Shown: piece after piece, positions 4,986 through 35,954 of the stretch | Layout: each line of letters starts with the position of its first letter | How positions within the stretch are numbered: the first letter of the stretch is position 1 | DNA from: a virus | Direction: 5' to 3' (one strand) | Length of the DNA stretch: 36,039 nt | Virus record (IMG/VR): IMGVR_UViG_3300045988_047146 | Made by a program: the position numbers and the translations under genes | The notes under the pieces: model-generated | Database searches by the model: none | What the model was told of the DNA's origin: nothing | What the model saw: the letters and a program-made list of their open reading frames with translations, nothing else

Positions 4986-6692
4986 TTAGGCGAAACGGAT
5001 CGTCGCCTGGGTGATTTCGATTTCCTGGGTTCCCTTCGTGATATAGAAGCGATAGCCCAGGCCATAGCCTTTCGCGGCGGTCGTATTCGTGAAGACGTGG
5101 ACAAGTCTGTTCGCCTTGTCAGTGATGTCTACCCACACCGGCGAAGTGTCGAACGGGTTGTTCGTGACTTCCAGGTGAAGGGTTGCGTCTGCCGGAATCG
5201 TCGCCGGATAAAGGGAAACAAAGACCTTCTGAACCAGGGCGTCCGTATTGAACGCGCGCGCCGCCGCGATACGGCTGACGGTGCGGCTGAATGTGATCTT
5301 TCGCGTTGCGCTTCCGCCGGCGCTGTCGGTGGCCGTGATCGTCAGGACGTGGGTTCCGGAAAGAAGCGGAAGCCATACACTGGACAGGTTGACGGTATTC
5401 TGGGCGCCGCTGGTCGCGGTATAGGTGCGAAGCGTGATCGTCTGGGTTCCGTTGGTCAGTTTTTCCGTGACCGTGATCGTTTGCGTGGCCGCCTGGGCGT
5501 CTGTGACCGTGTACTGGTATGTAAACGGCGCTGTTTTTGCGCCCAGGTTTTGATCCGAACCGCTGATCATGGGCGGCGTGTTGTAGGAAATGGTTTTTGC
5601 CGATCCGGTGCAGTAACCGGATTCAAGGCCGTTCGCGTCGACTGCCTTCACGCGCGCCGTGTAAGTTGTGCCGGACGTCGGAACTGTGTCGGTGAAGGTC
5701 TTTGCCGTGGTGATCCCTAACTGGACATAAGCGCCGGAATCAATCTTCCTTTCCCAGACGTAGGAAATGGCGTCGCCCTCCGGATCGGTAGAACCGCCCG
5801 TCGAAAGAACCAGGCTGTTTCCGGCTTGCGGTGTGCCGTAGGAAATAGAAGAAGGATCAGACGGCGGCTGGTTCCACTGTAAGATATAGGCCCCGTCGGT
5901 GTCTGTTGAATCGGATACCAGATTCCCAGATTCCAAATACAAAGCCGGCCGAACGCCACGGTTGCCAAAGCACGCGTAGTCGTTGTACAGACTGCCGTCC
6001 GAGTAGACAATGCGCGCATAGCACGCGTTGCCGGCGTACGGGGTTCTAAGCCACCAATACCAATAAGAAGACGCGTTCAAGCTGGAATTTGTATATTCCG
6101 AATTGCTGACGGCTTCGGCGGTCGGGTAGCACTGGCGGCGCGCGGCGCTGGAAAAGTAGGACCACAGGGCCCCTTCGGCCACGCTATTTTCGTTGGACAG
6201 GCCGACTTCGGTATTTGACAGAAGAAAGACCTTTCGGGTAATGTCTTCATAACCGCCGCCGTCGGTGACGGTATTCTTTGCGACACGGATCACGGCGTCC
6301 AGGATAGCTTTTCGGAAGTCTGCTTCGAAGTTAGACAGGAATCCGGCTTCGGTGTCGTATTCGTTGTAGTTGCTCCACACGTTGGCGTTATTCGGTGGTG
6401 CGTCGTAGCTGTGACGCGCGGAATACCAGGACGCGGCCTGGCTGTTCAACCACTGGTCAATATTAGACTGGGAATAGCGGTTGTTTCCGTAGCTTCGGCG
6501 GTCACCGTTCGTGTTCGAAGGCTCCTTCGCGTCGAAGCATTTCAGAGTGATCATTTTCTCGGTCACCAGGCCCGTTCGGCCGTTGGCTGTGTCCTGGGTT
6601 CCCACGATCCACCTGATCACTTTCCCGTTGTATTTCGTGTTCGTCGACTTGACAACGCTTCCAACGGGCAAAGCGGATAGTAATTTTGCCAT
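4986..6692 (-). CDS. DGR target 1: putative receptor-binding/tail-fiber-like protein carrying VR1
   Basis: 568 aa. An N-terminal domain of about 255 aa ends in WYWWLRTPYAGNACYARIVYSDGSLYNDYACFGNRGVRPAL, which is encoded by VR1. This is followed by Ig-like, Thr/Ser-rich beta repeats. ATG at 6692 with ribosome-binding site GGAGGG. Overlaps the RT 3' end by 190 bp. Confidence 0.8.
   Translation of the reverse strand: MAKLLSALPVGSVVKSTNTKYNGKVIRWIVGTQDTANGRTGLVTEKMITLKCFDAKEPSNTNGDRRSYGNNRYSQSNIDQWLNSQAASWYSARHSYDAPPNNANVWSNYNEYDTEAGFLSNFEADFRKAILDAVIRVAKNTVTDGGGYEDITRKVFLLSNTEVGLSNENSVAEGALWSYFSSAARRQCYPTAEAVSNSEYTNSSLNASSYWYWWLRTPYAGNACYARIVYSDGSLYNDYACFGNRGVRPALYLESGNLVSDSTDTDGAYILQWNQPPSDPSSISYGTPQAGNSLVLSTGGSTDPEGDAISYVWERKIDSGAYVQLGITTAKTFTDTVPTSGTTYTARVKAVDANGLESGYCTGSAKTISYNTPPMISGSDQNLGAKTAPFTYQYTVTDAQAATQTITVTEKLTNGTQTITLRTYTATSGAQNTVNLSSVWLPLLSGTHVLTITATDSAGGSATRKITFSRTVSRIAAARAFNTDALVQKVFVSLYPATIPADATLHLEVTNNPFDTSPVWVDITDKANRLVHVFTNTTAAKGYGLGYRFYITKGTQEIEITQATIRFA
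5941..6044 (-). repeat. DGR variable repeat VR1
   Basis: 104 bp, ungapped against the TR at 7927-8030, with 14 mismatches. Every mismatch falls at a TR plus-strand T, which is an A on the coding strand. In the protein, Asn codons of the TR appear as Y/C/I/S/D/F/R. Confidence 0.85.
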
Positions 6693-7758
6693 AGGTTAAT
6701 CCCTCCAATTCATTCTTGAACAGGTTGAAGAACAGGTCGTCCGTCTTCCTGATCAAGTGGTAACTGTTGCCGTGTTCGGCGTGACCGGTCCACGAAGAAT
6801 AGGATTGAAGAATCGTTTCGAAGTCGATCCGGCCTTCGTCCAGAAGGTGACGGTATTTCTTCAATTTCCTTCGGATTCGGTTCTTGCTTTCACGGCGGAC
6901 TTTTCTGACGACTTTTCCGGTGTCGGTCAGATAGGTCCTAAATCCCAGGAAGTCGATTCCCTGGGTTAAGGGGAAAATGGCCGTCTTTTGATTCAATTCC
7001 AGTCCTAAAGGGACCAGATACTTCTTGATTTCTTCCAGACAATAACGAAGATAGTCCTTGTCAGGGTGAATCAAATAGAAGTCGTCCATGTAGCGGCCGT
7101 ACATTTTGATTCCCAGACGTTCCTTGATCATGTGATCCATTCCGGACAGGTACAGAACGGCGAACCACTGTGAAGTATGGTTTCCGATCGGGATTCCTGG
7201 TCCTTCGGTGGAATCTATGATCATATCCAGAAGCCACAAGACGTCGCGGTCTTTGATAAGCCGGCGAAGCTGTTCTTTCAGAACGTCGTGATTGATACTG
7301 TAAAAATACTTTCGAATATCGCATTTCAGGACCCAGCCGTCCGCCCCGTTCTGTCGGTAGTACCTCGACATGAAATATTTCAGGCGGTCAAGTCCGAAGT
7401 GCGTTCCTTTGCCTTTCTGGCTTGCGTAGTTGTCGTATATGAAAGTTTTCGAAAGGTACGGTTCCAGGACATTATCGCAAAGACTGTGCTGAACGATTTT
7501 GTCGCGGAAGCTGTTATACATGATCAGTCGTTCCTTCGGTTCTTTCACAATGAAGCAGTTATAAGGCGACAGGCGGTATTTGTGGGCCGATAACATGAAA
7601 TGAACGAACATAAGGTTTTCAAGGACGTTCACTTCGTATTTGCAGACCGCATATTTCCACCGTTTACCTTTGCGCGCTTCTGTATACGATTGATATAGAC
7701 TGTTAAAGTCGATCACCTTCGCGAAGTCAGAAAGATTCAATGTCTGGTCTTCGCTCAA
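6502..7758 (-). CDS. DGR reverse transcriptase
   Basis: Motifs IPIGNHTSQ (DGR-type SQ motif), YMDDFYLI (YxDD catalytic box) and a thumb-like segment LNQKTAIFPLTQGIDFLGF. TTG start with ribosome-binding site AAGGAGG. Lies adjacent to the TR. Confidence 0.85.
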   Translation of the reverse strand: MSEDQTLNLSDFAKVIDFNSLYQSYTEARKGKRWKYAVCKYEVNVLENLMFVHFMLSAHKYRLSPYNCFIVKEPKERLIMYNSFRDKIVQHSLCDNVLEPYLSKTFIYDNYASQKGKGTHFGLDRLKYFMSRYYRQNGADGWVLKCDIRKYFYSINHDVLKEQLRRLIKDRDVLWLLDMIIDSTEGPGIPIGNHTSQWFAVLYLSGMDHMIKERLGIKMYGRYMDDFYLIHPDKDYLRYCLEEIKKYLVPLGLELNQKTAIFPLTQGIDFLGFRTYLTDTGKVVRKVRRESKNRIRRKLKKYRHLLDEGRIDFETILQSYSSWTGHAEHGNSYHLIRKTDDLFFNLFKNELEGLTYGKITIRFARWKRCQVDEHEIQRESDQVDRGNPGHSQRPNGPGDRENDHSEMLRREGAFEHER

Positions 7759-7926: not shown

Positions 7927-8030
7927 AAATCCGGCCGAACGCCATTGTTGCCATTGTACGCGTTGTTGTTGTTCAGACTGCCGTCCGTGTTGACATTGCG
8001 CGCATTGTACGCGTTGCCGGCGTACGGGGT
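7927..8030 (-). repeat. DGR template repeat (TR)
   Basis: Non-coding in its own context (an in-frame stop lies just upstream). The coding-strand sense encodes PYAGNAYNARNVNTDGSLNNNNAYNGNNGVRPD and contains 30 adenines in AAC/AAT-rich codons. 18 of those adenines are the only variable sites in VR1 and VR2. The GC-rich 3' end GGCGTTCGGCCGG is identical in all three copies. Confidence 0.85.
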
Positions 8031-8053: not shown

Positions 8054-8512
8054 TTACACGCTTTCCGGTATAGGGTCCGACGGGGCGATCGCTTCGGCGG
8101 TGTCCTGTTCGGCCTTGTACCATTTTGCGGTCATGAACTTAACGTCCAGGGTCAACTTCGTCCAATAGTCAAAGGTGTCCTTGTCGATATAGCTTCGCTT
8201 CTTCGATAATTCGATCATGTGAAGCAGTTTCTTGCACTCGGTCAAGGCGGCCCTTTGTAAACGAAGCCGTTCTGTCCGGTCCGCTTCTGTGCGGATCGGA
8301 AATATTTCGTTTGCTTCCAGTAAGCCGTCGTATATGGCCATGACGTGGCCCTGAATCTTGTTTGTGATCGAAAAACGGACGCGCTTCGGAAAGCGTTTCG
8401 CGTTGTCGGTCAGGTCCAGGGTGTAGTCGATCAGTTTTTCGGCCACCGGAAGAACGTGAAGCGGACTGTCATTTTTATTCGAAGTCCGCTGGTAGTTTCT
8501 TCTTGTTCCCAT
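8054..8512 (-). CDS. avd: Avd-like accessory variability determinant (four-helix-bundle protein)
   Basis: Basic, helical protein of about 150 aa immediately upstream of the TR. The region LPVAEKLIDYTLDLTDNAKRFPKRVRF resembles the four-helix-bundle/Avd family. The start is uncertain (M24 chosen; the ORF extends to 8581). Confidence 0.55.
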   Translation of the reverse strand: MGTRRNYQRTSNKNDSPLHVLPVAEKLIDYTLDLTDNAKRFPKRVRFSITNKIQGHVMAIYDGLLEANEIFPIRTEADRTERLRLQRAALTECKKLLHMIELSKKRSYIDKDTFDYWTKLTLDVKFMTAKWYKAEQDTAEAIAPSDPIPESV

Positions 8513-8732
8513 AGATACACCTTCGCTTTCGGATATTTTCGACGGTTTCCGGATCGCCGGAATAGTCGAAGCCATAATCACGAAGGACGACGGTTTCTTC
8601 CTGTCCTTCGTAGGTTACGCCACACAGGACCACGCTGTCGCCCTCACAGTGGCCACAGACGGGCCGAATTTCCGTGAATAGGTTCGATATAAGGCAAGAC
8701 GTTTCCGACGGCGTGGCGCCGATTCTGGTCAT
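8475..8732 (-). CDS. Small Cys-containing hypothetical protein
   Basis: 85 aa with a CxHC...C motif. Lies between the tail fiber gene and avd and overlaps the avd start region. Confidence 0.3.
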   Translation of the reverse strand: MTRIGATPSETSCLISNLFTEIRPVCGHCEGDSVVLCGVTYEGQEETVVLRDYGFDYSGDPETVENIRKRRCIYGNKKKLPADFE

Positions 8733-19401: not shown

Positions 19402-19405
19402 AGGA

Positions 19406-25108: not shown

Positions 25109-26380
25109 TCACTTCAATACTTCGATAGAAGAACCACGACGAAGACGTTCGACCGAATAGCGAAGGGCGGCCATAGCGTCGTCCATAAATTCGACCGGTT
25201 CGTCTATGTAAAGACCGGACGTCGGGTCCTTTTTCCATTTCCATTGTTGGACTTCTTTCAATACATTCACGCATGACGGGTGAATGTGGATTTTCCGGCC
25301 TTTCAGCCAGTCGATTTGTGCTTTCACGCTTCCAGGCTCTTTCTTCACAGGGTAAGCGCGGAAGCCGGCCTTTGACCATGTCTTGATCCTGTCCGGTTCA
25401 GCGGAATCGCAGAACATTTCGATACGTTGGTCGACTTTGTTCTGTTTGGCCAGACTGATAATTTCTTCGGTGTCCTTTTCAAAGACATAGATTTCAGAAC
25501 AGATATACACTTCGCCGTCTTTCCAGCCAACGCCCAGAATGGCGTCCGCGTGGTTATAGCCGAAATCCTGGCCATAATAGAAGGCGTCGAAGTTGTCTTT
25601 TCCGGTCTTGAAGTCGTGGACTTCGAAGTTCGTCAGGATAAGGCCGCCCAGTTCGCCCCATTCGCCCAGGCCATAGACGCGATAGCCTTCTGGGTCTTCT
25701 TCCTTGCGTCGTTCCATACGGCGAAAATAGGCTGGGTCTATGAACCGGTTTGTCTTATATGTTGAATGGTGGGCCAGGACGTCCGGATCAGCCTTGTCGA
25801 AGTATCGACCTTTGATCCAGTGTGTCGCGCTGACTGGGTTGAACGTCATTGTTATCTGGTAGTACAGATTCGGATTCAGTTCGTTCAGATTACCACGAAG
25901 ACGGTCGTCCAGAATGTCGACGTCTTCGGAAAGAAGTTCTGTCGCTTCTTCGCACCATATCCAGACCAGTTTCCCGTTCTTGAAGGTGATCGACTTCACC
26001 TTTTCACGCTGTCGCTGATCCTTGACACCGCGGAAAATGATTCTGTTTCCGGTGATCTTACATTCCAGCGCAAGCGGATTCAGATTCACTTTCCAGAAGC
26101 GGTCAGCATAGGGGCCGAACATTCTATATATTGCCGCTTGTAATTCGGCGAAGGTACTGTCGCGGTTTGTTTCTTCAATCTTTCGCACGACAAGAAGGTT
26201 CGCGCCGGTGTAGGCCGGATCGGACAGTTTCGCGATATAGTCCTGGGCGATATTCACAGACTTTCCGGAACCGGCTGAACCTTTCAGAATCCTATATCGA
26301 CCGCGCCATTCGTTGACGGGGCGGAAGACAGGGTTAAACTGTGCCGCCGCCTTGAATTCAATCTTCGCCGCCGTAGTCAT
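25109..26380 (-). CDS. terL: Terminase large subunit
   Basis: 423 aa. Walker A motif GSAGSGKS and a C-terminal nuclease-like region. Confidence 0.85.
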   Translation of the reverse strand: MTTAAKIEFKAAAQFNPVFRPVNEWRGRYRILKGSAGSGKSVNIAQDYIAKLSDPAYTGANLLVVRKIEETNRDSTFAELQAAIYRMFGPYADRFWKVNLNPLALECKITGNRIIFRGVKDQRQREKVKSITFKNGKLVWIWCEEATELLSEDVDILDDRLRGNLNELNPNLYYQITMTFNPVSATHWIKGRYFDKADPDVLAHHSTYKTNRFIDPAYFRRMERRKEEDPEGYRVYGLGEWGELGGLILTNFEVHDFKTGKDNFDAFYYGQDFGYNHADAILGVGWKDGEVYICSEIYVFEKDTEEIISLAKQNKVDQRIEMFCDSAEPDRIKTWSKAGFRAYPVKKEPGSVKAQIDWLKGRKIHIHPSCVNVLKEVQQWKWKKDPTSGLYIDEPVEFMDDAMAALRYSVERLRRGSSIEVLK

Positions 26381-26885
26381 AATTGATCACCACCGTTACA
26401 GGGACATTTGCTTCGGGATTGTCTTTGAACATTCCCAGGTGACGACCGCAAAGTTCAAGCGCTTTCAGTTTGTCGCATAGTTTGACTTCACGTTCGATCG
26501 CCTGTTCAATGACAGGATCGCCGTTTTCATCAAAGTCCTTATGTGGGACATATTTGACCTTCATTCCGGCGATAACCGCCAGATCGTCGTCGCTGGTGTC
26601 CGGCTTCACTTCCGCAGTCTGTAAGTCAAGGACGTCCTTCGGATTCACGAAGGCGATTCGTCCCAGTTCCCGAAGAACGCGGTCGGCGTTGATTCCGGTT
26701 CTTTTGGACCTTTCGGCCATTGCGGTTTCTATGCGCGCGCGAATTTCAGGTTTTGTCAAGTTTTCACTTCCGATACTTCCAGCCGATTCGACAGAATATC
26801 CGGCGCGGATCGCGGCCTGGGTCGCGTTCAGGTCGACCAGATATTCTTCACAGAAACGGGCTTGTTTCGGCGTTAGCTTTGCCAT
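26358..26885 (-). CDS. terS: Terminase small subunit
   Basis: 175 aa. N-terminal motif LTPKQARFCEEYLVDLNATQAAIRAGYS typical of the terminase small subunit. Confidence 0.75.
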   Translation of the reverse strand: MAKLTPKQARFCEEYLVDLNATQAAIRAGYSVESAGSIGSENLTKPEIRARIETAMAERSKRTGINADRVLRELGRIAFVNPKDVLDLQTAEVKPDTSDDDLAVIAGMKVKYVPHKDFDENGDPVIEQAIEREVKLCDKLKALELCGRHLGMFKDNPEANVPVTVVINYDYGGED

Positions 26886-27092: not shown

Positions 27093-27590
27093 TTATTCGT
27101 GGAAGGCTTTTGACCGTTCAGCCCTGGCGAAAAGCCTGTTCAGGGCGATTTCTCTTTGTCGATAGACGGTTGTCCTTTCGACTTGAAGGAATTCGGCCGC
27201 TTCGTCGTATGACCTGTAAGGATAGTACAGGGCAAGAAGGACGCATTTCGAACGGGTGTCCAGGGTATAGACCAGGTTTTGAACCTCTGTGATCTGTTGA
27301 AGCTGGCGTTCCAGATTGCCGATCGCTTCGTTTGCTCTTTGTCTTCTTCGGTCGCGCTTGTCGACCATGCGAACCAGTCTTCCGTCTGGGTCAGGTGAAG
27401 ACTGGACGCGGACGCCGGCGTCGGATAACTGACTGGACGGGTAAGCCGATTCAAGAATGAATTCCAGGTCGGCTTCCAGGGCTTCCTTTTCGGCGGCGAT
27501 CTGTGCTTCTATGACACGCGCTTCCTGATCATGGTTCCGAAGGATTTCCATGACCCTTGTTCTGACTTTGCTTTCTTTGGGTTTGTCCAT
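27093..27590 (-). CDS. Putative late-gene transcriptional activator (ArpU/RinA/sigma-like)
   Basis: 165 aa. The C-terminus (LLALYYPYRSYDEAAEFLQVERTTVYRQREIALNRL) resembles sigma-70 region 4. Sits immediately upstream of the packaging module. Confidence 0.5.
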   Translation of the reverse strand: MDKPKESKVRTRVMEILRNHDQEARVIEAQIAAEKEALEADLEFILESAYPSSQLSDAGVRVQSSPDPDGRLVRMVDKRDRRRQRANEAIGNLERQLQQITEVQNLVYTLDTRSKCVLLALYYPYRSYDEAAEFLQVERTTVYRQREIALNRLFARAERSKAFHE

Positions 27591-27620: not shown

Positions 27621-28007
27621 TCAGAACGGAATATCTTCGTCGGTCACTTCGAAGCCTTCGGACGTCATGGCGCTTTCGGCGTAGCTTCCGGCGGCGCTTT
27701 CCTTTTTGGCGTCCGCAAAATAGACAGAATCGGCGACGATTTCGACGGCCTTGTGTTTGCCGCCGTCGTTATCTTCCCAGGATCGTGTCTGTATGCTTCC
27801 GACGATCGCGACGCGCTGGCCTTTGGTGAAGTGCTTCGCGACGAATTCAGCAGTCTGGCGCCACGCGATAATATTGATATAGTCGGCCTTGTCGCGATTG
27901 AAACGGCGGTCGACGGCCAGGGTGAACGACGTGACGGCCGTTCCTTGTGGCGTGTATTTCAGTTCGGGGTCGCGTACCAGGCGCCCCATAAGTTGACACT
28001 GATTCAT
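27621..28007 (-). CDS. ssb: Single-stranded DNA-binding protein
   Basis: OB-fold N-terminus (MGRLVRDPELKYTPQGTAVTSFTLAV) and an acidic C-terminal tail DEDIPF. Confidence 0.9.
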   Translation of the reverse strand: MNQCQLMGRLVRDPELKYTPQGTAVTSFTLAVDRRFNRDKADYINIIAWRQTAEFVAKHFTKGQRVAIVGSIQTRSWEDNDGGKHKAVEIVADSVYFADAKKESAAGSYAESAMTSEGFEVTDEDIPF

Positions 28008-28027: not shown

Positions 28028-28432
28028 TCAGAATTTCTTTCCGTGTTTGTACGGGCGGCCTTCATTGTAGGCCATTTTGATTTCGATTACTTCTTCCAGG
28101 TCGATTCCCAGGTGTCCGCAAAGGTCCGCGATCCGGATCACCGCGTCAGCCAGTTCGACGGCCACGCCTTCGGGCTTTCTGCTTCTGTACTTGCAAAGGC
28201 TTTCTTTGCCGTACATAAGACATTCGGTTTCGTCTTGTGGGGTGCAAATAAAGTTGTCGCTTTCGTTACAAGCGAACCAGATGTCGGGGTTCCCGTTGCG
28301 TTCTTCTTCCAGGGCTTCGGAAAGTTCGCTGTGAATCAGTGCGATCGCTGTTCCAAAAGGAAGGGGTGGTTCCCAGAATCCGTGTTTCACGGCGTTTTCA
28401 TGTGCTTTCGCTACAAGTGTTTTGATTTCCAT
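28028..28432 (-). CDS. MazG-like nucleotide pyrophosphohydrolase
   Basis: 134 aa. EL(S/A)EALEE...E(L)ADAVIRIADLCGHLGIDLE motifs of the MazG/NTP-PPase fold. Confidence 0.6.
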   Translation of the reverse strand: MEIKTLVAKAHENAVKHGFWEPPLPFGTAIALIHSELSEALEEERNGNPDIWFACNESDNFICTPQDETECLMYGKESLCKYRSRKPEGVAVELADAVIRIADLCGHLGIDLEEVIEIKMAYNEGRPYKHGKKF

Positions 28433-28438: not shown

Positions 28439-28957
28439 TTACCTCTCTGTATCAGAAATAACTTTGATTCGGATTTCCTGGCGGCCGAAGTGAAGGGCGT
28501 CTTCGTGGTTATTGAAGAATACGTCGATCTTCTGACCGCTTATGGCTCCGCCGCGATCCTGGACGGTTCGTTCGCCTATGCCTTCTATGTAAAGGATAGT
28601 GCCTGGCGAATAGACGGACCAATCGGCCGCGATTGTGACGCCTTCTTCGGCTATGGCTCCGCTGGCCGTGTAGACGATACCGTCAGGGCGGTTCAGCGCC
28701 CATTTCCCACAGCATATTTCACAAGGACAGTAAGCCGTCGCCACGGCGTCGATCCATTCTTCCGGTTGTGTGGTTGGTTCATTTTCTGCAATGGCCACAG
28801 ACGGCGCCAGAATGGCCGTGGTTTCGTTTAATTCTTCCGGTAGGATAATTCCTTCGGCGACTGCTTTATCGTCAGCCAGGGCGAAGGACGCGCCCACCAG
28901 GACCATTCCCAGGGTGATTGTAAACAGTCCGATCTTGAACCTTTTCAGTCTTGTCAT
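28439..28957 (-). CDS. Secreted or membrane-anchored 3D-domain protein (MltA-like fold)
   Basis: N-terminal signal/transmembrane segment, then the 3D-domain residues ATAYCPCEICCG...DRGGAI.G.KIDVFF. Confidence 0.6.
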   Translation of the reverse strand: MTRLKRFKIGLFTITLGMVLVGASFALADDKAVAEGIILPEELNETTAILAPSVAIAENEPTTQPEEWIDAVATAYCPCEICCGKWALNRPDGIVYTASGAIAEEGVTIAADWSVYSPGTILYIEGIGERTVQDRGGAISGQKIDVFFNNHEDALHFGRQEIRIKVISDTER

Positions 28958-29502
28958 TCGTTTTCACCGCCTTCCACTTCGTCGCCCCAGGAATCCCAGC
29001 CAGGGGCGGTCTTTCTTGCAAATAGTTCGATCATTGATCCCCCCCCCGCAAGCTGAACGATCCTGTCACGGGTTTCGGCCGGCTTTTCACTGTGACGGCC
29101 GATCGGGGCGTCGATTATGCTATGGACTGACGCTGACGCGCGCTTCGGTTTGCCTTTTGTGGCCAGAAGACAGATTTCCGCGTTTGCGCGTGTCCAGTTC
29201 CCCAGGCCCCAGAACCAGGAAGGCGATTTTCGGTTTCGCTTCACCCAGACGAAGGCGGCTGTTTTGTACTGGAAGCCCCAGCGCCGGATCGTTTCAAGGG
29301 CAACGTCCAGGTTCGGGAATGTGGCCCACAGAAATAGAAGACAGTCGTCTTCGGCTATATCCTGAACCGGAAGGGAATAGATGTCTTCCGGCTTCATTGT
29401 GCGATAGTGCCTTTCGACGTTTCGCGTCTTTCCACCGGCCGCGTAGTTCCACGGCGGATCGGCGTATATTACCGAATATTTCTTTTCCGGAAATGGTATC
29501 AT
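28954..29502 (-). CDS. DNA N6-adenine methyltransferase (MT-A70/Dam-like)
   Basis: DPPW motif (IYADPPWNY). Contains a G9 coding-strand homopolymer (plus-strand C9 at 29038-29046). Confidence 0.8.
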   Translation of the reverse strand: MIPFPEKKYSVIYADPPWNYAAGGKTRNVERHYRTMKPEDIYSLPVQDIAEDDCLLFLWATFPNLDVALETIRRWGFQYKTAAFVWVKRNRKSPSWFWGLGNWTRANAEICLLATKGKPKRASASVHSIIDAPIGRHSEKPAETRDRIVQLAGGGSMIELFARKTAPGWDSWGDEVEGGENE

Positions 29503-30101: not shown

Positions 30102-30367
30102 TACGACACCGCCTTTCTGGCGGCCAGGTTTTCCGCTGACCGTTGGTCACAGTAAGCAGAAAAGGCCATTTCGCGGATCACGTCGGGGATCAGAAGTGAA
30201 AGGTATTCGTCGCCGTAGCCGTCTTCGCCCCAGGCGCGGCCGGCGCTTTTGTTGGCGACTTCCAGTTTTCTTCTAGCGTAATGCTCTAAGTATCCGAACA
30301 GGTCTTCGTCGATTTCGAAGCCCATTTCTTTTTCGACTTCCAGTTGAAGGGCGGATTTGTTACCCAT
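30101..30367 (-). CDS. Hypothetical early protein
   Basis: 88 aa ORF. Confidence 0.35.
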   Translation of the reverse strand: MGNKSALQLEVEKEMGFEIDEDLFGYLEHYARRKLEVANKSAGRAWGEDGYGDEYLSLLIPDVIREMAFSAYCDQRSAENLAARKAVS

Positions 30368-30590
30368 TGTTTCGACCTCCTTTCAGGCTGTCCGGCATTT
30401 TGGACGGAAGGTCCGCCTGGTGGATCAGGACAAGGTCGCTTCTATCCACCAGGGAACCGTCGTGAAAGTGCGCGAAGGCGCCACTGTTCAGGTTGACCGC
30501 TGTGTTCGGCTTCGTGGTCTTGATCAGGGCTTGTCCCTGATGTTCGAAGACGTCGCCGGCGGCGCATTGCTTAAAAGTCGTCTTCTTCAT
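30360..30590 (-). CDS. Hypothetical small protein (start re-set to MKKTTF)
   Basis: The longer ORF begins MATMAFGR inside VR2 in a different frame, which is a repeat artefact. The internal ATG at 30590 lies just after the stop of DGR target 2. Confidence 0.3.
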   Translation of the reverse strand: MKKTTFKQCAAGDVFEHQGQALIKTTKPNTAVNLNSGAFAHFHDGSLVDRSDLVLIHQADLPSKMPDSLKGGRNNG

Positions 30591-31272
30591 CGTTGTCACC
30601 GTCTTCCTGGCCTTCGGCGATTCTGCGAAGGACTTCTTCGACAAGCTGTTTCGAAGTGAATTCGGCCAACAGGGCGGAAGTGGAAAGTTCAACCTGGTCT
30701 GGCTCCACGGATAACGTGATCCCAGATTCCACGAAGAAAGCCGGCCGAACGCCATAGTTGCCACTGTACGCGTGGCCGTTGTTCAGACTGCCGCCCGTGT
30801 AGACAGAGCGCGCATAGTACGCGTAGCCGGCGTACGGGGTGATCAGCCACCACCAGTCGTCAAGTTCAAGTAGATCCTGATCGGCGTATTTCTCATACAT
30901 GGTTTGCGTCAGAAGCGCGATCTTTGCCTGAATAATTCCGTAACCTTCGCCGCCCTCATGGTCAGCCAGGGACCAGTCGGCCGTCAAGATGTCCTTTGAA
31001 CGGATAGGGCCTTCGGCCTGGTCGAATGTAGCCAGGAATTCGGTATTCAGTTCACGGTTAAGGTTTGAGAAGCGCCAGTCGTTCGGATTTGCGGCCGGCT
31101 TTTCCGGTCTGGTCTTGAACGGCTGATCCGCGAAGTGGCGGTCAGCGATACAGGTATCGGCGATCAGAAGGGTTCTTCCGTCGGCAAAGTGTTCCAGGAC
31201 GCGGACGTCAATCGGTCCGGCGTTGAATACGGTTCCAGGTGCAAGGTCTTTCAATTTTGCGCGTACAGTCAT
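30571..31272 (-). CDS. DGR target 2: standalone paralogue of the target-1 N-terminal domain, carrying VR2
   Basis: 233 aa. Same architecture as target 1 aa 1-255 (KLKDLAPGTVF..., NLNRELNTEFL..., WWWLITPYAGYAYYARSVYTGGSLNNGHAYSGNYGVRPAF). Acidic tail EDGDNDEEDDF. Confidence 0.8.
   Translation of the reverse strand: MTVRAKLKDLAPGTVFNAGPIDVRVLEHFADGRTLLIADTCIADRHFADQPFKTRPEKPAANPNDWRFSNLNRELNTEFLATFDQAEGPIRSKDILTADWSLADHEGGEGYGIIQAKIALLTQTMYEKYADQDLLELDDWWWLITPYAGYAYYARSVYTGGSLNNGHAYSGNYGVRPAFFVESGITLSVEPDQVELSTSALLAEFTSKQLVEEVLRRIAEGQEDGDNDEEDDF
30737..30840 (-). repeat. DGR variable repeat VR2 (remote)
   Basis: 104 bp, ungapped against the TR, with 12 mismatches. All mismatches fall at TR coding-strand adenines. 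Lies 22.8 kb from the TR. Confidence 0.85.
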
Positions 31273-31682
31273 TTTTTGTTTCCTCCTTCAAATTCTTCGA
31301 TTATGACTTCGACACGGGGGTTCTTCGGGTCCACAGCGAAGTCATCGGTAAAGTGTTCAATGTGTTTCCAGCCGTCATTTTGAAGAACGCCGGCATGGAC
31401 AAGGCTGTCCTGAATGAACTTCTTCGCAAAAGCGATATTGTCTTTATCTCTCCGGCGGTTCGGTTCGATCCAGGTGTAATGTATCACCACGGGACGGGTG
31501 AAGCGGACGCCGCGAAGCTGGGTTTTGATCATGTAGCCGATTACGTTTTCAGCCTGTTTCTTCATGGCGGCGGCCTTGTATTTGCCTTTGGCGCCGCGTT
31601 CAGCGTCCACATATTCGTTCAGTCCTGGCAGAAGGCCAGGGATTGTCAGTTTATAGTGTTTCACTCTGTCACGTCCTTTCAA
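31269..31682 (-). CDS. rusA: RusA-family Holliday junction resolvase
   Basis: 137 aa, with the size and conserved acidic/basic pattern of RusA. Confidence 0.65.
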   Translation of the reverse strand: MKGRDRVKHYKLTIPGLLPGLNEYVDAERGAKGKYKAAAMKKQAENVIGYMIKTQLRGVRFTRPVVIHYTWIEPNRRRDKDNIAFAKKFIQDSLVHAGVLQNDGWKHIEHFTDDFAVDPKNPRVEVIIEEFEGGNKK

Positions 31683-32529
31683 GCCCCAGAAGGCGCTTCG
31701 CCTTGTCGCGGCGTTCTTGTGCGTTCTGGGTTCTTCTGGAATCTCCGGCCAGTTTCAGCCTGATCGGACACATTTCCAGAATTCGGTCATAAATTCGGGA
31801 ATATCCCAGGGACGACGGGTTTTGAAGGTCGGCCAGGGAAAGGTTTGTCGTGACGATCAAGGGCTTTCCGGTGCGGCTTCTGGCGTCTATGACGTTGAAG
31901 ACCTGTTCCACGGAATAGGACGTGTCCCTTTCGACGCCCAGGTCGTCGATGACAAGAAGGTCATATCGGGACAGCTTGTCCAGGAATTCCTGTTTATCTT
32001 CGCCGAAGCCTTGAAGTTTGTTCAGGATTCGGGGAAAGTTCGTCACGCTGGCGCGGACCTGTTTGTCGATCAAGGCGTTTGCTATGCAACAGGCCAGGAA
32101 TGACTTTCCGGTCCCGACGCCGCCATAAAACAGGATTCCGATATTGTCGGCCTTCATTTCCGGCCAGTGTTCCACATAGCGGCGGCACACGTCGGAAATT
32201 CTGGCGTTGCGGTTGTCGTCCTGGGTGAAGTTCTGGGACAGGTACGACGGATCAGTGATCCCGTCTTTGCGAAGCCGTTCGCATTGCTTCCGGAATTCGG
32301 CGGCCTTTTCTTCGGCTTCACGTTGGCGGCTGGCTTCTGATTCGCACTTGCACAGGTGCGGAACGCGAAGCGTTTTTTCGCCGATCGTGATGTCGCCTTC
32401 TTTCCTGGTGTGGCATTTGCCACAGCACAGGAAGCCTTCTTCGTCGCGGTAGTCGCCTTCGGCGCCATTGTTCGCCCTACCTCTGGCGGCGATACCTTCG
32501 ACAGCGGCCGTCCAGATGTTGTCGGCCAT
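31669..32529 (-). CDS. DnaC/IstB-like AAA+ helicase loader
   Basis: Walker A motif GGVGTGKS, Walker B motif LLVIDDLG, and an N-terminal Cys-rich zinc-binding segment. Confidence 0.75.
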   Translation of the reverse strand: MADNIWTAAVEGIAARGRANNGAEGDYRDEEGFLCCGKCHTRKEGDITIGEKTLRVPHLCKCESEASRQREAEEKAAEFRKQCERLRKDGITDPSYLSQNFTQDDNRNARISDVCRRYVEHWPEMKADNIGILFYGGVGTGKSFLACCIANALIDKQVRASVTNFPRILNKLQGFGEDKQEFLDKLSRYDLLVIDDLGVERDTSYSVEQVFNVIDARSRTGKPLIVTTNLSLADLQNPSSLGYSRIYDRILEMCPIRLKLAGDSRRTQNAQERRDKAKRLLGLERT

Positions 32530-32531: not shown

Positions 32532-33320
32532 TTATTCACCGTCGTCCAGGAAGTCTTCGCCGTCGTCGTAGTTCTTGACGGTGGCCGGCTTCGGGGACGG
32601 TATGACTTCGGCGCGGTCATATTCGTTCCAGCGTTCACCGCGAAGGAATGTCGCCGGATATGGAATAAAGCGGCCGTCGTCCTTTGTCCACTGTTCAGAA
32701 CGCTTCCAGCGCTCCACACCCTGGACGATCTGGTTTGTCAAGTCTGGGTTAGGGCGAATTTGATTCCAGACCTTCACGGCGTCTTTCTTGCCGACTTTTC
32801 GTGGATAGACTGACCAGAACTGGTCAAAAGTGTCGTCCACTCCGGCGCCGCGTTGCGCCGATACTCGTTTTCGTTTCTCGTTTACGTTTTCGAATACGTT
32901 TTCGTTTACGTTTACGGAAGAATCTGCTTGCATTTGCGCGCAAGTGTCAGAATTGTCACTTGATACCCCTTGACTGCAAGTGTTATCAAATTCTTGCGGT
33001 AGTGGGTATTTGGGTTTTGTTGCGCGCCTGTTCTGGTGTTTGTCCCAGGACAGAAGTTTCAGGTATTGCCGACCGTCTTCGGCTCTGTATGTAGCCACAA
33101 GGCCACCGTTCACAAGTTCAGCCAGCCAGGAAGACACCTTCTTTTCGGTCGGTACGTTCAGCGGAAAGAGAAGGGAAGCAAGGATTTTCGGGCTTCCGTA
33201 GTACAGGCCGAAGTCGTCCGCTTTTACGATCAGACGATAGAACAGGACTTCGGCTTCCGCCGATAAGTACGCCAGACTTTCAGACGTACATATTGATTCT
33301 TTCAAAATGCGGCTGGGCAT
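32532..33320 (-). CDS. Replisome organizer / replication initiator (DnaD-like C-terminus)
   Basis: 262 aa, upstream of the DnaC-like gene. Contains internal iteron-like repeats. Confidence 0.55.
   Translation of the reverse strand: MPSRILKESICTSESLAYLSAEAEVLFYRLIVKADDFGLYYGSPKILASLLFPLNVPTEKKVSSWLAELVNGGLVATYRAEDGRQYLKLLSWDKHQNRRATKPKYPLPQEFDNTCSQGVSSDNSDTCAQMQADSSVNVNENVFENVNEKRKRVSAQRGAGVDDTFDQFWSVYPRKVGKKDAVKVWNQIRPNPDLTNQIVQGVERWKRSEQWTKDDGRFIPYPATFLRGERWNEYDRAEVIPSPKPATVKNYDDGEDFLDDGE
32863..32917. repeat. Iteron-like short tandem repeats (candidate phage origin of replication) inside the initiator gene
   Basis: Seven copies of CGTTT(T) at 6-7 bp spacing, encoding NVNENVFENVNEK. Followed by a 10-bp palindrome TTGCGCGCAA. 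Confidence 0.5.
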
Positions 33321-33335: not shown

Positions 33336-34106
33336 TCACGCGTTTTTCTGACAGGCGCGGCACATTTCACGGCCGAATTTGTTCATGGAATAGCGGCGTT
33401 CAGCTTCGCTGATAGGGCCGCCGCACACGGGACACGCGGCGCCGCCTGTCTGGGCGCTGTTTTGCGGTTGTGGTGCGGTTCTTTGCTGTTGGTTGGTAGA
33501 TTGTCCACCCTGGGCGTTCTGCCCGTTCGTGGCGCTCTGTGTGGCTTGTGGCGCCGGTGCGTGTCCGTTCATATTGAAGCGGACTTTATTGTTCCGGTCG
33601 ACGATTACCAGGTCACAGATTTCGCGGCGTTCGTTATAGGCGATCTTCGATACCTTGAACTTCGTACTGGCGTAGCACTTGAAGACTTCCTTCTGGCCCT
33701 GGCGTTCGGGATAGAATTCACCGTCAGCCAGTTCGACATAAATGAAAGGGCCTGTATAAAGTTCGCGGCCGATCCCGACGTTGAAGCCGGCACGTTTGAA
33801 GCTGTCGGACGCCTGGCCTTTTTCCTTTTCGGTGTTGCTCTCTGTTCCGACGTCCTGTTTTCTGACCCAGGTCTTTTTTTCGTCGTCCCAGATGTCGATA
33901 TTACAGAACAGGTTTCCATTGATTACTTCGTGGGTTCTCTGCCAGTTGCCAGGCCCGAAGACCTGGTCCAGGATTCGCATATCGACGCGCGCGTCCTTGT
34001 AAAGCAGAAGGACGGCGCCGACGCGGCCGGTCTTTGCTTTGCTGACCGACTGAACGCGACAGTCAATGTCTTGTTCGGTAAGAAGGGGAATCGAAAGTTC
34101 TTTCAT
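33336..34106 (-). CDS. Rad52/Sak-family single-strand annealing protein with a C-terminal zinc ribbon
   Basis: 256 aa. DSFKRAGFNVGIGRELY motif, a Gln/Pro-rich linker and CPVCGG...CRAC. Confidence 0.6.
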   Translation of the reverse strand: MKELSIPLLTEQDIDCRVQSVSKAKTGRVGAVLLLYKDARVDMRILDQVFGPGNWQRTHEVINGNLFCNIDIWDDEKKTWVRKQDVGTESNTEKEKGQASDSFKRAGFNVGIGRELYTGPFIYVELADGEFYPERQGQKEVFKCYASTKFKVSKIAYNERREICDLVIVDRNNKVRFNMNGHAPAPQATQSATNGQNAQGGQSTNQQQRTAPQPQNSAQTGGAACPVCGGPISEAERRYSMNKFGREMCRACQKNA

Positions 34107-34118: not shown

Positions 34119-34613
34119 TTATTTGATTTGAAGGTTTCGGTTCTCCACAAGGGAAGCGCCGGACACTTCCTGGCCGGACTGGATCGCCTTCTTGATCGCG
34201 GTCTTGTCCGGTTTCGTTGTAACGGTTTCAACAACGAAGTCAGCCGGAAGGGCTTTTTCGTCGTCAATGCTTACGGCCACAGACTTTCGGAAGGAAACGC
34301 GAACCTTTGTGGTTTCGACCTTGTCACGGCCGGCGGCGTCCAGACACGCGGTCAGGACATTCTTCAAATAGTCGATTCGCTTTTCGGTCTGCTTGCGGCG
34401 CTTTGCCAGGTTGGCTTCTTCGGCTTTCAGGTCGCCGATAAAGACTTCGGAATTCTTGATGTAGCAAGCGACAGCTTCGCTTTTTTCTTCGAAGGCTCCG
34501 GACAGTTCGTCCAGTTCTTCGGCGTTCAGGATTTCGCCGGTTTCTTCGTCGATTTCCAGGTTGTCAAGGACCTTCAAATACTTGTCAGTGATTTCGTACA
34601 GGGTGTTATTCAT
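34119..34613 (-). CDS. Siphovirus Gp157-family protein
   Basis: Start re-set to the ATG at 34613 (MNNTLYEIT) with ribosome-binding site GGAAGGAGG. A coiled-coil protein next to the recombinase. Confidence 0.5.
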   Translation of the reverse strand: MNNTLYEITDKYLKVLDNLEIDEETGEILNAEELDELSGAFEEKSEAVACYIKNSEVFIGDLKAEEANLAKRRKQTEKRIDYLKNVLTACLDAAGRDKVETTKVRVSFRKSVAVSIDDEKALPADFVVETVTTKPDKTAIKKAIQSGQEVSGASLVENRNLQIK

Positions 34614-34812
34614 TTTCGGAACCTCCTTCCAGGGTAGCGACCTTCGCTTCAAGGTCTTTCACTTGCTGATCGGCTTTCTTGTAGCGGTCGAACCAGTCGT
34701 TCGAACACTTCTTTTCATAGTCCAGATCGCTTTTCAGTTCAGCGTTTTCGATTAAAATATCCAGGACGAACGCCTTCACGGCGTCGGTGTCATAAAAATT
34801 CAGTTTAGCCAT
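34606..34812 (-). CDS. Small coiled-coil hypothetical protein
   Basis: 68 aa with an ATG start. Confidence 0.4.
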   Translation of the reverse strand: MAKLNFYDTDAVKAFVLDILIENAELKSDLDYEKKCSNDWFDRYKKADQQVKDLEAKVATLEGGSENE

Positions 34813-34999: not shown

Positions 35000-35240
35000 G
35001 TTTTGACCTCCTTTCCGTAGGATTTCGGAAGGCGCCACCTACAAAGGCGAAGCCGGTTCCAATGAACAGAAGGCCGAAGGTTCTGACCGTTCCTTCTACC
35101 AGGGACACCGCGTCGGTTTCTATGGCGCCGATCGTTCCCCAGGCAAAGAAGAAGGCAATAGCCGCCGCCAGGGCTGACGTCCTTCTGATCGCCAGACGGA
35201 TTCGGCGTCGTTTCCGCCTGGTTGCTCTGTCCGGTGTCAT
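34929..35240 (-). CDS. Small 2-transmembrane membrane protein
   Basis: Basic N-terminus followed by two hydrophobic helices. Ribosome-binding site AAAGGAGG. Overlaps the downstream gene by 71 nt. Confidence 0.4.
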   Translation of the reverse strand: MTPDRATRRKRRRIRLAIRRTSALAAAIAFFFAWGTIGAIETDAVSLVEGTVRTFGLLFIGTGFAFVGGAFRNPTERRSKHEVHCDTVGRPGRTSRQKSSSAW

Positions 35241-35497
35241 TTCTTGACCTCCTTTCTTTTCGGACCACTGCCGCGACGGCGAATGTTTTCCTGGTAGGTT
35301 CTTTGTGCCAGTACCGGATCATAGGCCGGTCGCTGGTTCTGATCCAGTTTCCCAGTCGCGCCGCGTTTCAGTTCGACATACAGTGTTCGAAGGGCGACGC
35401 CCACTTCGTCAGAAATGTCGGAAATGGACATTCCTTTCGCGTACAGGGCCGCGATTTTCTTTCTGTTGTCGAAGGTGATAGACTTATAAACTGCCAC
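35237..35497 (-). CDS. HTH DNA-binding protein (possible early regulator)
   Basis: 86 aa. Contains IAALYAKGMSISDISDEVGVALRTLY. GTG start. Confidence 0.45.
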   Translation of the reverse strand: MAVYKSITFDNRKKIAALYAKGMSISDISDEVGVALRTLYVELKRGATGKLDQNQRPAYDPVLAQRTYQENIRRRGSGPKRKEVKK

Positions 35498-35928: not shown

Positions 35929-35954
35929 AATTAAGCCGCTGAATAAGCGGTAGG

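What the first reader, a model, noticed from the sequence alone, without database searches (positions are those of the whole stretch)
30571..31272. Remote second DGR target in the early region, 22.8 kb from the TR
The segment 30737-30840 is a third copy of the 104-bp repeat. Its 12 differences from the TR are again exclusively at TR coding-strand adenines. Across both variable repeats, 18 of the 30 TR adenines vary and no other base does. The host gene is a 233-aa standalone protein. Its whole length parallels the N-terminal ~255-aa domain of target 1, sharing the KLxxLxxG, NxNxELNTEFL, LLS/LTQT and WWWLxTPYAG...GVRPA blocks. It ends in an acidic tail EDGDNDEEDDF and has no attached fiber or Ig-like region. 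It sits among replication and recombination genes (between rusA and the methyltransferase) rather than in the virion module. A diversified ligand-binding module expressed with early genes is unusual. It could be a second receptor-binding protein, or an intracellular binder such as an anti-defence or host-takeover factor.
Basis: partly seen in the sequence, partly recalled or inferred. Interest (0 to 1): 0.85.

Follow-up and report, generated by a model that had tools for sequence, protein, structure and literature searches.

The report
Second, remote DGR target gene
A gut prophage uses one mutagenic retroelement to hypervariate two binding proteins. The second is a small stand-alone lectin-fold protein encoded among the replication genes; this layout is real but already published for related gut phages.

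Summary
Window 30737-30840 is a third copy of the 104-nt DGR repeat. All 12 differences from the template repeat (TR, 7927-8030) lie at TR adenines. One of them (TR position 101) is a fixed TR-versus-VR marker, not random mutagenesis.

The host gene (30571-31272, minus strand, 233 aa) is a free-standing DUF6273/C-type-lectin-fold protein. Its start codon overlaps the rusA stop codon, inside a tightly packed replication/recombination gene block.

Relatives show that diversification is active:
- VR2 codons are hypervariable only where the TR has adenine.
- VR2 carries lineage-specific non-adenine TR changes.
- Neighbouring proteins are identical on at least 1000 contigs, whereas the exact target-2 protein is on 3.

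The architecture is already published: a large "tentaclin" target next to the reverse transcriptase plus a small remote DUF6273 target. It is described for phages nd4/nd12, Toutatisvirus, and Faecalibacterium prophages Lelie and CP11. CP11 is probably this lineage.

What the papers read here do not discuss is where the small target sits. It lies in the early/DNA-metabolism region in five gene maps examined, four distinct lineages. In nd12-type phages it is fused to DUF3310, a domain of early intracellular phage proteins. Whether it works on the virion or inside the cell is unresolved.

The parts
30571..31272 (-). Target gene 2: 233-aa stand-alone DUF6273 / C-type-lectin-fold protein. Features: pI 4.4, one Cys, no hydrophobic segment, a C-terminal amphipathic helix, and an acidic tail ending ...EEDDF.
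30737..30840 (-). VR2, the variable repeat, encoding aa 145-179 of target 2.
   Evidence: 12 of 12 differences from the TR are at TR adenines. It is hypervariable in relatives only at TR-adenine codons. It tracks lineage-specific non-adenine TR changes.
30737..30753 (-). GC-rich 3' end of VR2 (GGCGTTCGGCCGGCTTT), an IMH-like element. It carries the fixed C (30740) where the TR has A (7930).
   Evidence: C in 31/31 VR2 and 31/31 VR1; A in 42/42 TRs.
7927..8030 (-). Template repeat (TR): 104 nt, 30 adenines, AAY-rich codons.
   Evidence: The TR is almost invariant at A positions across 42 relatives, with mean entropy 0.13 bit.
8054..8581 (-). Avd accessory protein gene.
   Evidence: phrog_3206 'Avd protein of DGR', E 7.5e-25. 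Weak Pfam 23S_rRNA_IVP hit.
6502..7758 (-). DGR reverse transcriptase gene.
   Evidence: Pfam RVT_1, E 3e-18. phrog_1423, E 1.7e-137.
4986..6692 (-). Target gene 1: 568 aa, an N-terminal DUF6273 domain plus Ig/PKD-like domains (a 'tentaclin', annotated 'Hoc-like').
   Evidence: DUF6273, E 2.8e-38. Full-length match to phrog_10993, E 1e-207.
5941..6044 (-). VR1, encoding aa 217-251 of target 1.
   Evidence: 14 of 14 differences at TR adenines. In 15 of 16 related loci every difference from the cognate TR is at A.
31269..31682 (-). rusA-like resolvase gene, the upstream neighbour. Its TGA stop overlaps the target-2 ATG (ATGA), and a GGAGG sits 8 nt upstream of the ATG.
   Evidence: phrog_1682, E 1.2e-41. 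Sequence. Gene gaps from Gam to TerS range from -47 to +30 nt.

Best explanation
SHOWN. The gene at 30571-31272 is a genuine, currently active, non-adjacent second target of the prophage's single diversity-generating retroelement. That element is Avd 8054-8581, TR 7927-8030 and RT 6502-7758.

By the established DGR mechanism, TR RNA is reverse-transcribed with misincorporation opposite adenines. The cDNA then replaces VR2, as it does VR1. The shared GC-rich 3' end directs this; it differs from the TR at one fixed base.

The product is a 26-kDa free-standing DUF6273/C-type-lectin-fold protein. The VR rewrites about 15 codons at the C-terminal end of the domain.

INFERRED FROM GENE ORDER. The gene is translationally coupled to rusA and lies in an uninterrupted Gam-Erf-replication initiator-DnaC-RusA-...-methyltransferase-SSB block. 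It is therefore made together with the replication/recombination genes.

INFERRED, ABOUT 0.45. The protein acts as a soluble diversified binder off the virion, most likely inside the infected cell. The candidate role is recognition of variable host or competitor proteins, i.e. takeover or anti-defence. It would not be a tail-anchored receptor-binding protein.
For: DGR target:
- Adenine-only differences.
- In cognate TR/VR2 pairs on the same contigs, 9/9, 11/11 and 20/20 differences are at A. VR2 also copies lineage-specific non-adenine TR substitutions.
- Mean column entropy in VR2 is 1.22 bit at TR-A positions against 0.10 elsewhere.
- Protein hypervariability is confined to aa 147-173.
- The exact target-2 sequence is on 3 contigs, while the DnaC-like, methyltransferase and Erf-like proteins are each on at least 1000.

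Early or off-virion role:
- ATGA overlap with rusA and no gap longer than 30 nt in the block.
- No promoter- or terminator-like site flanks the gene on its strand.
- The small target occupies the early/DNA-metabolism region in five gene maps examined, four distinct lineages (window, nd4, nd12-like, Toutatisvirus): the window, nd4, nd12, FP_Toutatis and an nd12-like prophage.
- The nd12-type orthologue is fused to DUF3310. That domain marks early, intracellular, often toxic phage proteins such as T7 gp1.7 and lactococcal SaV (PMC10700055, PMC8306868).
- Gene-call fusions to an RNase_T exonuclease and to DNA methylases show the same neighbourhood.
- There is no signal peptide, no transmembrane segment, and no Ig, beta-prism or fibre-attachment domain.
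Against: - No expression or proteomic data exist for this gene. Gene order is only a proxy for timing, and the whole minus-strand array runs on into the terminase genes without an obvious terminator.
- Phage DGR targets characterised so far are mostly virion receptor-binding or adhesion proteins (PMC8144416).
- DUF6273 occurs in extracellular proteins such as tentaclins and the IgA protease N-terminal domain.
- One TR serves both targets, which suggests similar ligand chemistry.
- Published authors favour an Mtd-like receptor-binding role (PMC10743442; bioRxiv 10.1101/2024.10.15.618418).
- The VR part of the model has low confidence (pLDDT below 50), so the binding surface itself was not seen.
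Confidence: 0.5

Rival explanations
1. Target 2 is a virion-associated or virion-recruited receptor-binding/adhesion protein, functionally like Bordetella phage Mtd. It would give the phage a second diversifiable specificity alongside the tentaclin. It would be encoded away from the tail genes but incorporated through its C-terminal helix.
For: - It has a C-type-lectin-type fold with the VR at the end of the domain, as in Mtd, TvpA and the B. ovatus pilin 4EPS.
- It uses the same TR as the tentaclin target.
- Its Tyr/Asn/Ser/Gly/Asp-rich VR repertoire is typical of ligand-binding surfaces.
- A conserved C-terminal helix motif in many small DUF6273 proteins could be a docking element.
- This is the hypothesis published for nd4/nd12 tgt2 and Toutatis gp24.
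Against: - The gene lies in the replication/recombination block in five gene maps examined (four distinct lineages), never in the tail module.
- It lacks Mtd's beta-prism and beta-sandwich attachment domains and any Ig domain.
- The nd12-type version is fused to an early-protein domain, DUF3310.
Confidence: 0.33
2. VR2 is a relic: a decayed copy of the repeat left by an old duplication of the DUF6273 domain and no longer targeted by the retroelement.
For: None beyond the distance of 22.8 kb from the TR.
Against: - VR2 carries lineage-specific non-adenine TR changes in three independent contigs.
- It has high entropy at TR-A positions only.
- It keeps the IMH-like end with the fixed marker in 31/31 relatives.
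- Relatives at 77-96% identity fall into at least 120 separate 90%-identity clusters, several holding thousands of distinct sequences.
Confidence: 0.02
3. The variation in VR2 comes from gene conversion or recombination between the two VR copies or between co-infecting phages, not from retrohoming.
For: Two homologous 104-nt segments exist in one genome. Some related contigs show rearrangements.
Against: - VR1 and VR2 of the window differ at 14 positions.
- Each differs from the TR only at adenines.
- Recombination would not produce adenine-restricted substitutions to all three other bases.
Confidence: 0.02

Closest known systems
Target2 (tgt2) of gut phages nd4 and nd12 (Baykov et al. 2023, PMC10743442; GenBank OR777945, OR777946)
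   Same: - One Avd-TR-RT cassette with a large N-terminal-DUF6273 'tentaclin' target next to the RT, plus a small DUF6273-only target of 234-294 aa.
- All belong to phrog_9958.
- nd4_tgt2 hits target 2 by tblastn at 29% identity, E 5e-9.
- The small target lies about 9-10 kb from the cassette, among replication genes.
   Different: - Only 27-31% identity.
- nd4/nd12 are described in the paper as sheath-bearing myoviruses. No sheath gene was looked for in the window; only baseplate-wedge and tail-fibre genes were identified.
- nd4_tgt2 lacks the acidic tail with terminal aromatic residue.
- nd12_tgt2 has an extra N-terminal DUF3310 domain.
- The paper does not discuss the genomic position: the word 'replication' does not occur in it.
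Faecalibacterium prophages CP11 and Lelie, 'small DGR target proteins' (PMC11792537)
   Same: - CP11 is a 35,729-bp Faecalibacterium prophage with a DGR, two VRs, and large plus small DUF6273 targets.
- It has 37 IMG/VR cognates that show variation spikes at both VRs.
- The phage proper in the window is about 35.76 kb.
- One of the window's proteins is identical to a Faecalibacterium wellingii entry.
   Different: Identity with CP11 rests on size, host and architecture only. The paper calls the function 'not entirely clear'. It does not discuss the small target's position among the replication genes, and no virion proteomics is mentioned in the passages retrieved.
Toutatisvirus second VR gene (FP_Toutatis gp24; bioRxiv 10.1101/2024.10.15.618418)
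   Same: - The TR lies between Avd and RT.
[quoted passage not shown] - gp24 belongs to phrog_9958.
- It lies between the methyltransferase/3D-domain genes and the replication initiator and antiterminator Q.
   Different: A different phage genus with a 54.7-kb genome and low sequence identity. The authors assume a receptor-binding role.
Bordetella phage BPP-1 Mtd, and Roseburia phage Shimadzu VR2 (bioRxiv 10.1101/575076)
   Same: - Adenine-specific mutagenic retrohoming into a lectin-fold variable protein.
- Shimadzu shows experimentally that two VRs, one in an ORF of unknown function, are both rewritten.
   Different: Mtd is 381 aa with beta-prism and beta-sandwich domains. It is encoded next to its cassette in the tail region and is a proven virion receptor-binding protein. 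Target 2 has none of these features.

Membership tests
DGR variable-repeat target (mutagenic retrohoming) | The VR is homologous to a TR, with differences confined to TR adenines. | tested here: met
   12/12 in the window. 9/9, 11/11 and 20/20 in cognate pairs from other contigs.
DGR variable-repeat target (mutagenic retrohoming) | A DGR-type reverse transcriptase, an accessory protein (Avd) and the TR are in the same genome. | tested here: met
   RT with RVT_1 and phrog_1423; Avd with phrog_3206; the TR lies between them.
DGR variable-repeat target (mutagenic retrohoming) | A GC-rich IMH at the 3' end of the VR differs from IMH* of the TR. | tested here: met
   GGCGTTCGGCCGG followed by C in all 62 VRs and by A in all 42 TRs.
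DGR variable-repeat target (mutagenic retrohoming) | A hairpin/cruciform lies just downstream of the VR (Guo et al. 2011, PMC3240598). | tested here: inconclusive
   Hairpins fold at the same offset after VR2 and VR1 but not after the TR. However, z-scores are only -1.9 and -0.9, the outer stem is broken in most relatives, and the region is coding.
DGR variable-repeat target (mutagenic retrohoming) | The VR is hypervariable in populations while the TR and flanks are conserved. | tested here: met
DGR variable-repeat target (mutagenic retrohoming) | RT-dependent cDNA transfer from TR to VR is demonstrated. | not testable with these tools
   This needs an RT-null mutant or a marked TR.
Small DUF6273-only DGR targets (phrog_9958; 'tgt2' class) | DUF6273 is the only domain, with a full-length match to phrog_9958. 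| tested here: met
   nd4_tgt2 and Toutatis gp24 match the same PHROG over their full length; nd12_tgt2 matches it over its DUF6273 part (aa 86-281), downstream of the DUF3310 domain.
Small DUF6273-only DGR targets (phrog_9958; 'tgt2' class) | A C-type-lectin-type fold with the VR as a surface beta-hairpin at the end of the domain. | tested here: inconclusive
Mtd-like tail receptor-binding proteins | N-terminal beta-prism/beta-sandwich domains that attach a trimer to the tail fibre. | tested here: not met
Mtd-like tail receptor-binding proteins | Encoded in the tail/late module next to the cassette. | tested here: not met
   The gene lies between rusA and the methyltransferase, 22.8 kb from the TR.
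Mtd-like tail receptor-binding proteins | Present in virions and determines adsorption. | not testable with these tools
   Needs virion proteomics and adsorption assays.
Tentaclins (Baykov 2023) | An N-terminal DUF6273 domain followed by Ig-like domains. | tested here: not met
   Target 2 has no Ig/PKD/Fn3 part. Target 1 (4986-6692) does.
SSB C-terminal-tip mimics | A terminal D-D-D-I-P-F type peptide. | tested here: not met
   The tail is ...DNDEEDDF (variants ...SEIW...DDDF), without the Ile-Pro. The window's own SSB ends ...DEDIPF. The terminal aromatic residue is confined to this clade.

The most novel reading that the evidence does not exclude
The small stand-alone DUF6273 targets of gut-phage DGRs may not be virion receptor-binding proteins. 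They may be early-expressed intracellular binders that the phage re-randomises to keep recognising variable host or rival-phage proteins, for host takeover or anti-defence. This would be a phage-side counterpart of the DGR-diversified sensors described in multicellular bacteria.

Three observations are compatible with this reading:
- the conserved position among replication/DNA-metabolism genes in five gene maps examined (four distinct lineages);
- the DUF3310 fusion in nd12-type phages;
- the lack of any export or virion-attachment feature.
Probability: 0.35. Interest if true: 0.8.

Novelty: already known. Interest (0 to 1): 0.35.

Why it matters
The finding itself is a clean, well-supported example of a known arrangement in a very prevalent gut prophage. 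Its neighbouring proteins occur unchanged on at least 1000 assembled contigs.

The value added here is a pattern the papers read here do not discuss. The small second target sits in the early/DNA-metabolism region in several unrelated phages, and in one lineage it is fused to an early-protein domain.

If that reflects function, phage DGRs would diversify more than host-recognition hardware. They would also diversify an intracellular protein-recognition module, which would widen what targeted hypermutation is thought to do for viruses. The question is directly testable with inducible Faecalibacterium prophages such as Lelie.

Tried and rejected
- **First structure prediction.** The run with 97 close homologues failed (mean pLDDT 44.6). 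A second run used a 135-sequence alignment spanning five subfamilies and gave pLDDT 72.9.
- **Close relatives among deposited phages.** Megablast of 24 kb of the window found nothing. tblastn found only four distant hits.
- **Terminal repeat as genome ends.** I first took the identical 85-nt window ends as phage termini or att sites. They are two host tRNA-Pro copies. The phage ends at about 113 and about 35876, as shown by a circle junction in L007 and by different host flanks in L026, L027 and L003.
- **Shorter VR2-TR spacing in L003.** The 9.5-kb spacing is due to internal deletions or misassembly of that contig.
- **SSB-tail mimicry.** The idea for the acidic ...EEDDF tail failed. It lacks the Ile-Pro, and the terminal aromatic residue is clade-specific.
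- **Downstream hairpin as a recognition element.** Inconclusive.
- **Promoter/terminator scan of 26-36 kb.** Counts were near shuffled expectation, and nothing flanks the gene.
- **Literature on early-gene or anti-defence DGR targets.** A search combining DGR with anti-defense, C-type lectin and early genes found no paper.
- **IgA-protease paper (PMC12402451).** The passages retrieved did not say what its DUF6273 domain binds.

Full report
**Observation**

The repeat search finds three in-register copies of one segment, at 5912-6056, 7898-8042 and 30708-30852. A base-by-base comparison on the minus strand delimits these 104-nt cores:
- TR 7927-8030
- VR2 30737-30840
- VR1 5941-6044

The TR has 30 adenines. 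VR2 differs from it at 12 positions and VR1 at 14. Every one is a TR adenine, and the union is 18. The chance of 12/12 and 14/14 falling on adenines is 5e-8 and 2e-9. The described feature is therefore present at the stated coordinates and is far beyond chance.

One refinement concerns the A-to-C difference at TR position 101 (7930 versus 30740). It is A in 42 of 42 related TRs, and C in 31 of 31 VR1 and 31 of 31 VR2 copies. It behaves as the fixed TR/VR marker of the GC-rich IMH-like end (GGCGTTCGGCCGG-C/A-TTT), not as a mutagenesis product.

**The retroelement and its two targets**

On the minus strand the order is:
- Avd (8054-8581, phrog_3206)
- TR
- reverse transcriptase (6502-7758, RVT_1, phrog_1423)
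- target 1 (4986-6692, 568 aa)

Target 1 has an N-terminal DUF6273 domain followed by Ig/PKD-like domains and matches phrog_10993 'Hoc-like' over its full length.

Target 2 (30571-31272, 233 aa) contains only DUF6273, scoring 56.5 bits against a cut-off of 23.5. It matches phrog_9958 from end to end.

BLASTP aligns the two targets only around the VR: aa 127-192 versus 198-264, 51% identity. The VR encodes aa 145-179 of target 2.

**Is VR2 an active target?**

A homologue search returned 1950 relatives. The best 120 have 77-96% identity and all represent separate 90%-identity clusters, several with thousands of distinct member sequences.

Column entropy in an alignment of 119 of them is near zero across the protein, except at aa 147-173. 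There it reaches 2.5-3.4 bits, exactly at codons where the TR has adenine.

At DNA level, 31 VR2 copies from viral contigs and genomes have mean entropy of 1.22 bit at TR-adenine positions and 0.10 bit elsewhere. The 42 TR copies have 0.13 bit at those same positions.

Three contigs hold both VR2 and its own TR. In them, 9/9, 11/11 and 20/20 differences are at TR adenines. VR2 also carries the lineage-specific non-adenine substitutions of its own TR. That result requires continued copying of TR information into VR2 in separate lineages.

As a contrast, the exact DnaC-like, methyltransferase and Erf-like proteins of the window are each found on at least 1000 contigs. The exact target-2 protein is found on 3, and the exact target-1 protein on none.

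A relic copy or gene conversion between VRs cannot produce this adenine-restricted spectrum. VR1 and VR2 of the window differ from each other at 14 positions.

**Context**

The neighbours on the minus strand, in order, are:

| Gene | Coordinates |
|---|---|
| Gam-like | 34119-34652 |
| Erf-like | 33336-34106 |
| replication initiator | 32532-33320 |
| DnaC-like | 31669-32529 |
| RusA | 31269-31682 |
| target 2 | 30571-31272 |
| four small ORFs | |
| DNA methyltransferase | 28954-29502 |
| 3D-domain protein | 28439-28957 |
| MazG-like pyrophosphatase | 28028-28432 |
| SSB | 27621-28007 |
| sigma-r4-like regulator | 27093-27590 |
| small terminase | 26358-26885 |
| large terminase | 25109-26380 |

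The rusA stop overlaps the target-2 start (ATGA), with GGAGG 8 nt upstream. The next ORF probably starts 20 nt inside the target-2 3' end. No gap in the block exceeds 30 nt. A consensus scan finds no promoter- or terminator-like site flanking the gene on its strand, and overall counts are near shuffled expectation.

Co-expression with the replication/recombination genes is thus inferred from gene order. It has not been measured.

The protein has pI 4.4, one cysteine and no hydrophobic segment; the maximum 19-residue hydropathy is 0.81.

**Fold**

A first AlphaFold run on close homologues failed (pLDDT 44.6). After two profile searches for divergent small targets and tentaclin N-domains, a 135-sequence alignment gave mean pLDDT 72.9 and pTM 0.71. 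The model is one globular domain followed by two C-terminal helices and a disordered acidic tail.

- FGE-like folds such as PvdO, CarF and PorK.

The lectin/FGE-type fold is therefore supported. The VR segment itself is modelled with low confidence, so its surface exposure was not confirmed here.

**What is already known**

The layout is published.
- Baykov et al. 2023 (PMC10743442) described gut phages nd4 and nd12 with one TR serving two targets. One is a 569-579-aa 'tentaclin' (N-terminal DUF6273 plus Ig domains). The other is a 234-294-aa DUF6273-only 'tgt2', modelled as a lectin-fold globule flanked by short helices and proposed to be Mtd-like.
- A 2024 preprint (10.1101/2024.10.15.618418) reports the same for Toutatisvirus. 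The second VR gene of unknown function lies 17,480 nt from the TR and is present in 98.8% of the phages.
- PMC11792537 reports large and small DUF6273 targets in Faecalibacterium prophages Lelie and CP11.
- CP11 is 35,729 bp, has 37 IMG/VR cognates, and shows variation spikes at both VRs. The phage proper in the window is about 35.76 kb, and one of its proteins is identical to a Faecalibacterium wellingii entry. The window is thus probably this lineage, although I could not compare sequences.
- Wu et al. 2018 (PMC5758913) already noted many prophage DGRs with one adjacent and one non-adjacent target.
- Roseburia phage Shimadzu shows experimentally that both of its VRs are rewritten.

On this basis the finding is already known.

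**What the papers read here do not discuss**

I examined the gene maps of the published relatives.
- In nd4, tgt2 (30965-31669) lies beyond the lysis genes and a divergent regulator. It sits next to an exonuclease-like gene, SSB and dnaC.
- In nd12 and an nd12-like prophage, it lies in the early array upstream of a methyltransferase, a VRR-NUC nuclease, HNH and the terminase.
- In FP_Toutatis and a relative, gp24 lies between the methyltransferase/3D-domain genes and the replication initiator and antiterminator Q.

With the window, that makes five gene maps from four distinct lineages in which the small target is in the early/DNA-metabolism region and never in the tail module.

In the nd12-type lineage the small target carries an N-terminal DUF3310 domain. 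That domain is found in T7 gp1.7, in the early toxic lactococcal protein SaV, and in cytotoxic early genes of mycobacteriophages (PMC10700055, PMC8306868).

Gene-call fusions to an RNase_T exonuclease and to DNA methylases point to the same neighbourhood.

The Baykov paper never uses the word 'replication'. The Faecalibacterium paper does not discuss the small target's position. A literature search combining DGR with anti-defence, C-type lectin and early genes found nothing.

**Function**

Two readings remain.
- **Receptor-binding reading (published).** It rests on analogy with Mtd and on the lectin fold. It is weakened by the lack of any virion-attachment domain and by the gene's position.
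- **Off-virion early-binder reading.** It rests on position, translational coupling, the DUF3310 fusion and the absence of export signals. It has no direct evidence.

I put the off-virion reading at about 0.45 and the virion reading at about 0.33.

The acidic tail ending in an aromatic residue (...EEDDF...SEIW) is conserved in this clade and superficially recalls SSB-type tails; the window's SSB ends ...DEDIPF. It lacks the Ile-Pro, and the terminal aromatic residue is absent outside the clade, so I do not build on it. A C-terminal helix motif, (F/Y)(S/T)xx(E/Q)L(V/L)xEV(L)RR, recurs across many 50%-identity clusters and may be a docking element.

**Verdict**

- The novelty is overstated.

The feature is a well-documented kind, probably already described for this very lineage. 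The conserved early-region placement of the small target is a modest, testable lead.

Noticed in passing
window 1-112 and 35877-36039; L003, L007, L026, L027: The identical 85-nt window ends are two host tRNA-Pro(AGG) copies, not phage termini. The phage runs from about 113 (ATGAAAAAGTC...) to about 35876 (...CTCCTCACAA). L007 shows the two ends joined as a circle junction. In other prophages the same right end abuts different host DNA, each time about 20-30 nt upstream of a TTGACA -35 box (a tRNA-Lys/Glu operon, rpmG, and others). AACTTTTGAAAG occurs at both junctions in the window and may be a 12-nt target duplication.
   Followed up: partly
window 157-1197 (-) and 35237-35497 (-); L117 2457-2825: The integrase is a DDE enzyme of IS30 type (rve plus HTH_38; phrog_4646 'transposase'), not a tyrosine or serine recombinase. 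A small HTH_38-only paralogue sits at the other end of the prophage. An nd12-like prophage also begins with an HTH_38 gene, next to rpsL/rpsG/fusA.
   Followed up: partly
window 8024 and 8009 (TR positions 7 and 22): The window's TR has T at two positions where 39 of 42 related TRs have A. Two codons (TAC instead of AAC) are therefore not mutable in this copy. In relatives both VRs vary at these positions.
   Followed up: yes
L027 (CALPCJ010000012.1): A prophage 98.5% identical over 15 kb lies in a genome labelled Senimuribacter sp. DSM 106208 (Peptostreptococcales). Identical proteins are also recorded for Faecalibacterium wellingii (Eubacteriales). This means either a very broad host range or mislabelled or contaminated assemblies.
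   Followed up: no
window 6502-6692 (-): The reverse-transcriptase ORF overlaps the start of target 1 by 190 nt. RT homology to phrog_1423 extends to about aa 370, past the target-1 ATG. In nd4 the corresponding overlap is only 11 nt.
   Followed up: no
window 30571-30606 (-); L016, L017, L021, L024: Target 2 ends in an acidic tail with a terminal aromatic residue (...EEDDF, ...SEIW, ...DEIW, ...DDDF). The tail is conserved in this clade and preceded by an amphipathic helix. That helix motif recurs in many distant small DUF6273 proteins.
   Followed up: partly
L116 19719-20612; P0122, P0123, P0146, P0172, P0124: nd12-type small targets are DUF3310+DUF6273 fusions, in 90%-identity clusters of 10,000-23,000 distinct sequences. 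Some gene calls fuse small targets to an RNase_T exonuclease or to DNA methylases.
   Followed up: partly
L023 4815-5512 and window 30360-30590 (-): In one relative, target 2 is fused in frame to the downstream small ORF, giving a 303-aa product. In the window that ORF probably starts at ATG 30590, 20 nt inside the 3' end of target 2.
   Followed up: no
L029 14555-14639, L019 14525-14609: More distant relatives carry a tRNA-Leu(CAG) gene between the regulator gene and the small ORF upstream of the terminase. The window has none there.
   Followed up: no
window 4496-5104 (-) and 2638-3558 (-): Directly downstream of target 1 lies a protein with two CBM_5_12 carbohydrate-binding modules. After two small ORFs comes an endolysin with a LysM-like part.
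   Followed up: no
L003 (IMGVR_UViG_3300029623_000510), L017: Two related viral contigs are not collinear with the window. L003 lacks about 1.5 kb and about 11.8 kb of the structural region. L017 has a tail segment inverted next to the early genes. They may be deletion derivatives or assembly chimeras.
   Followed up: partly
related VR1 copy listed (locus not recorded): In one relative the reading frame of target 1 stops immediately after VR1 and a terminator-like hairpin follows. This would be a short target with a C-terminal VR in place of the tentaclin architecture.
   Followed up: no
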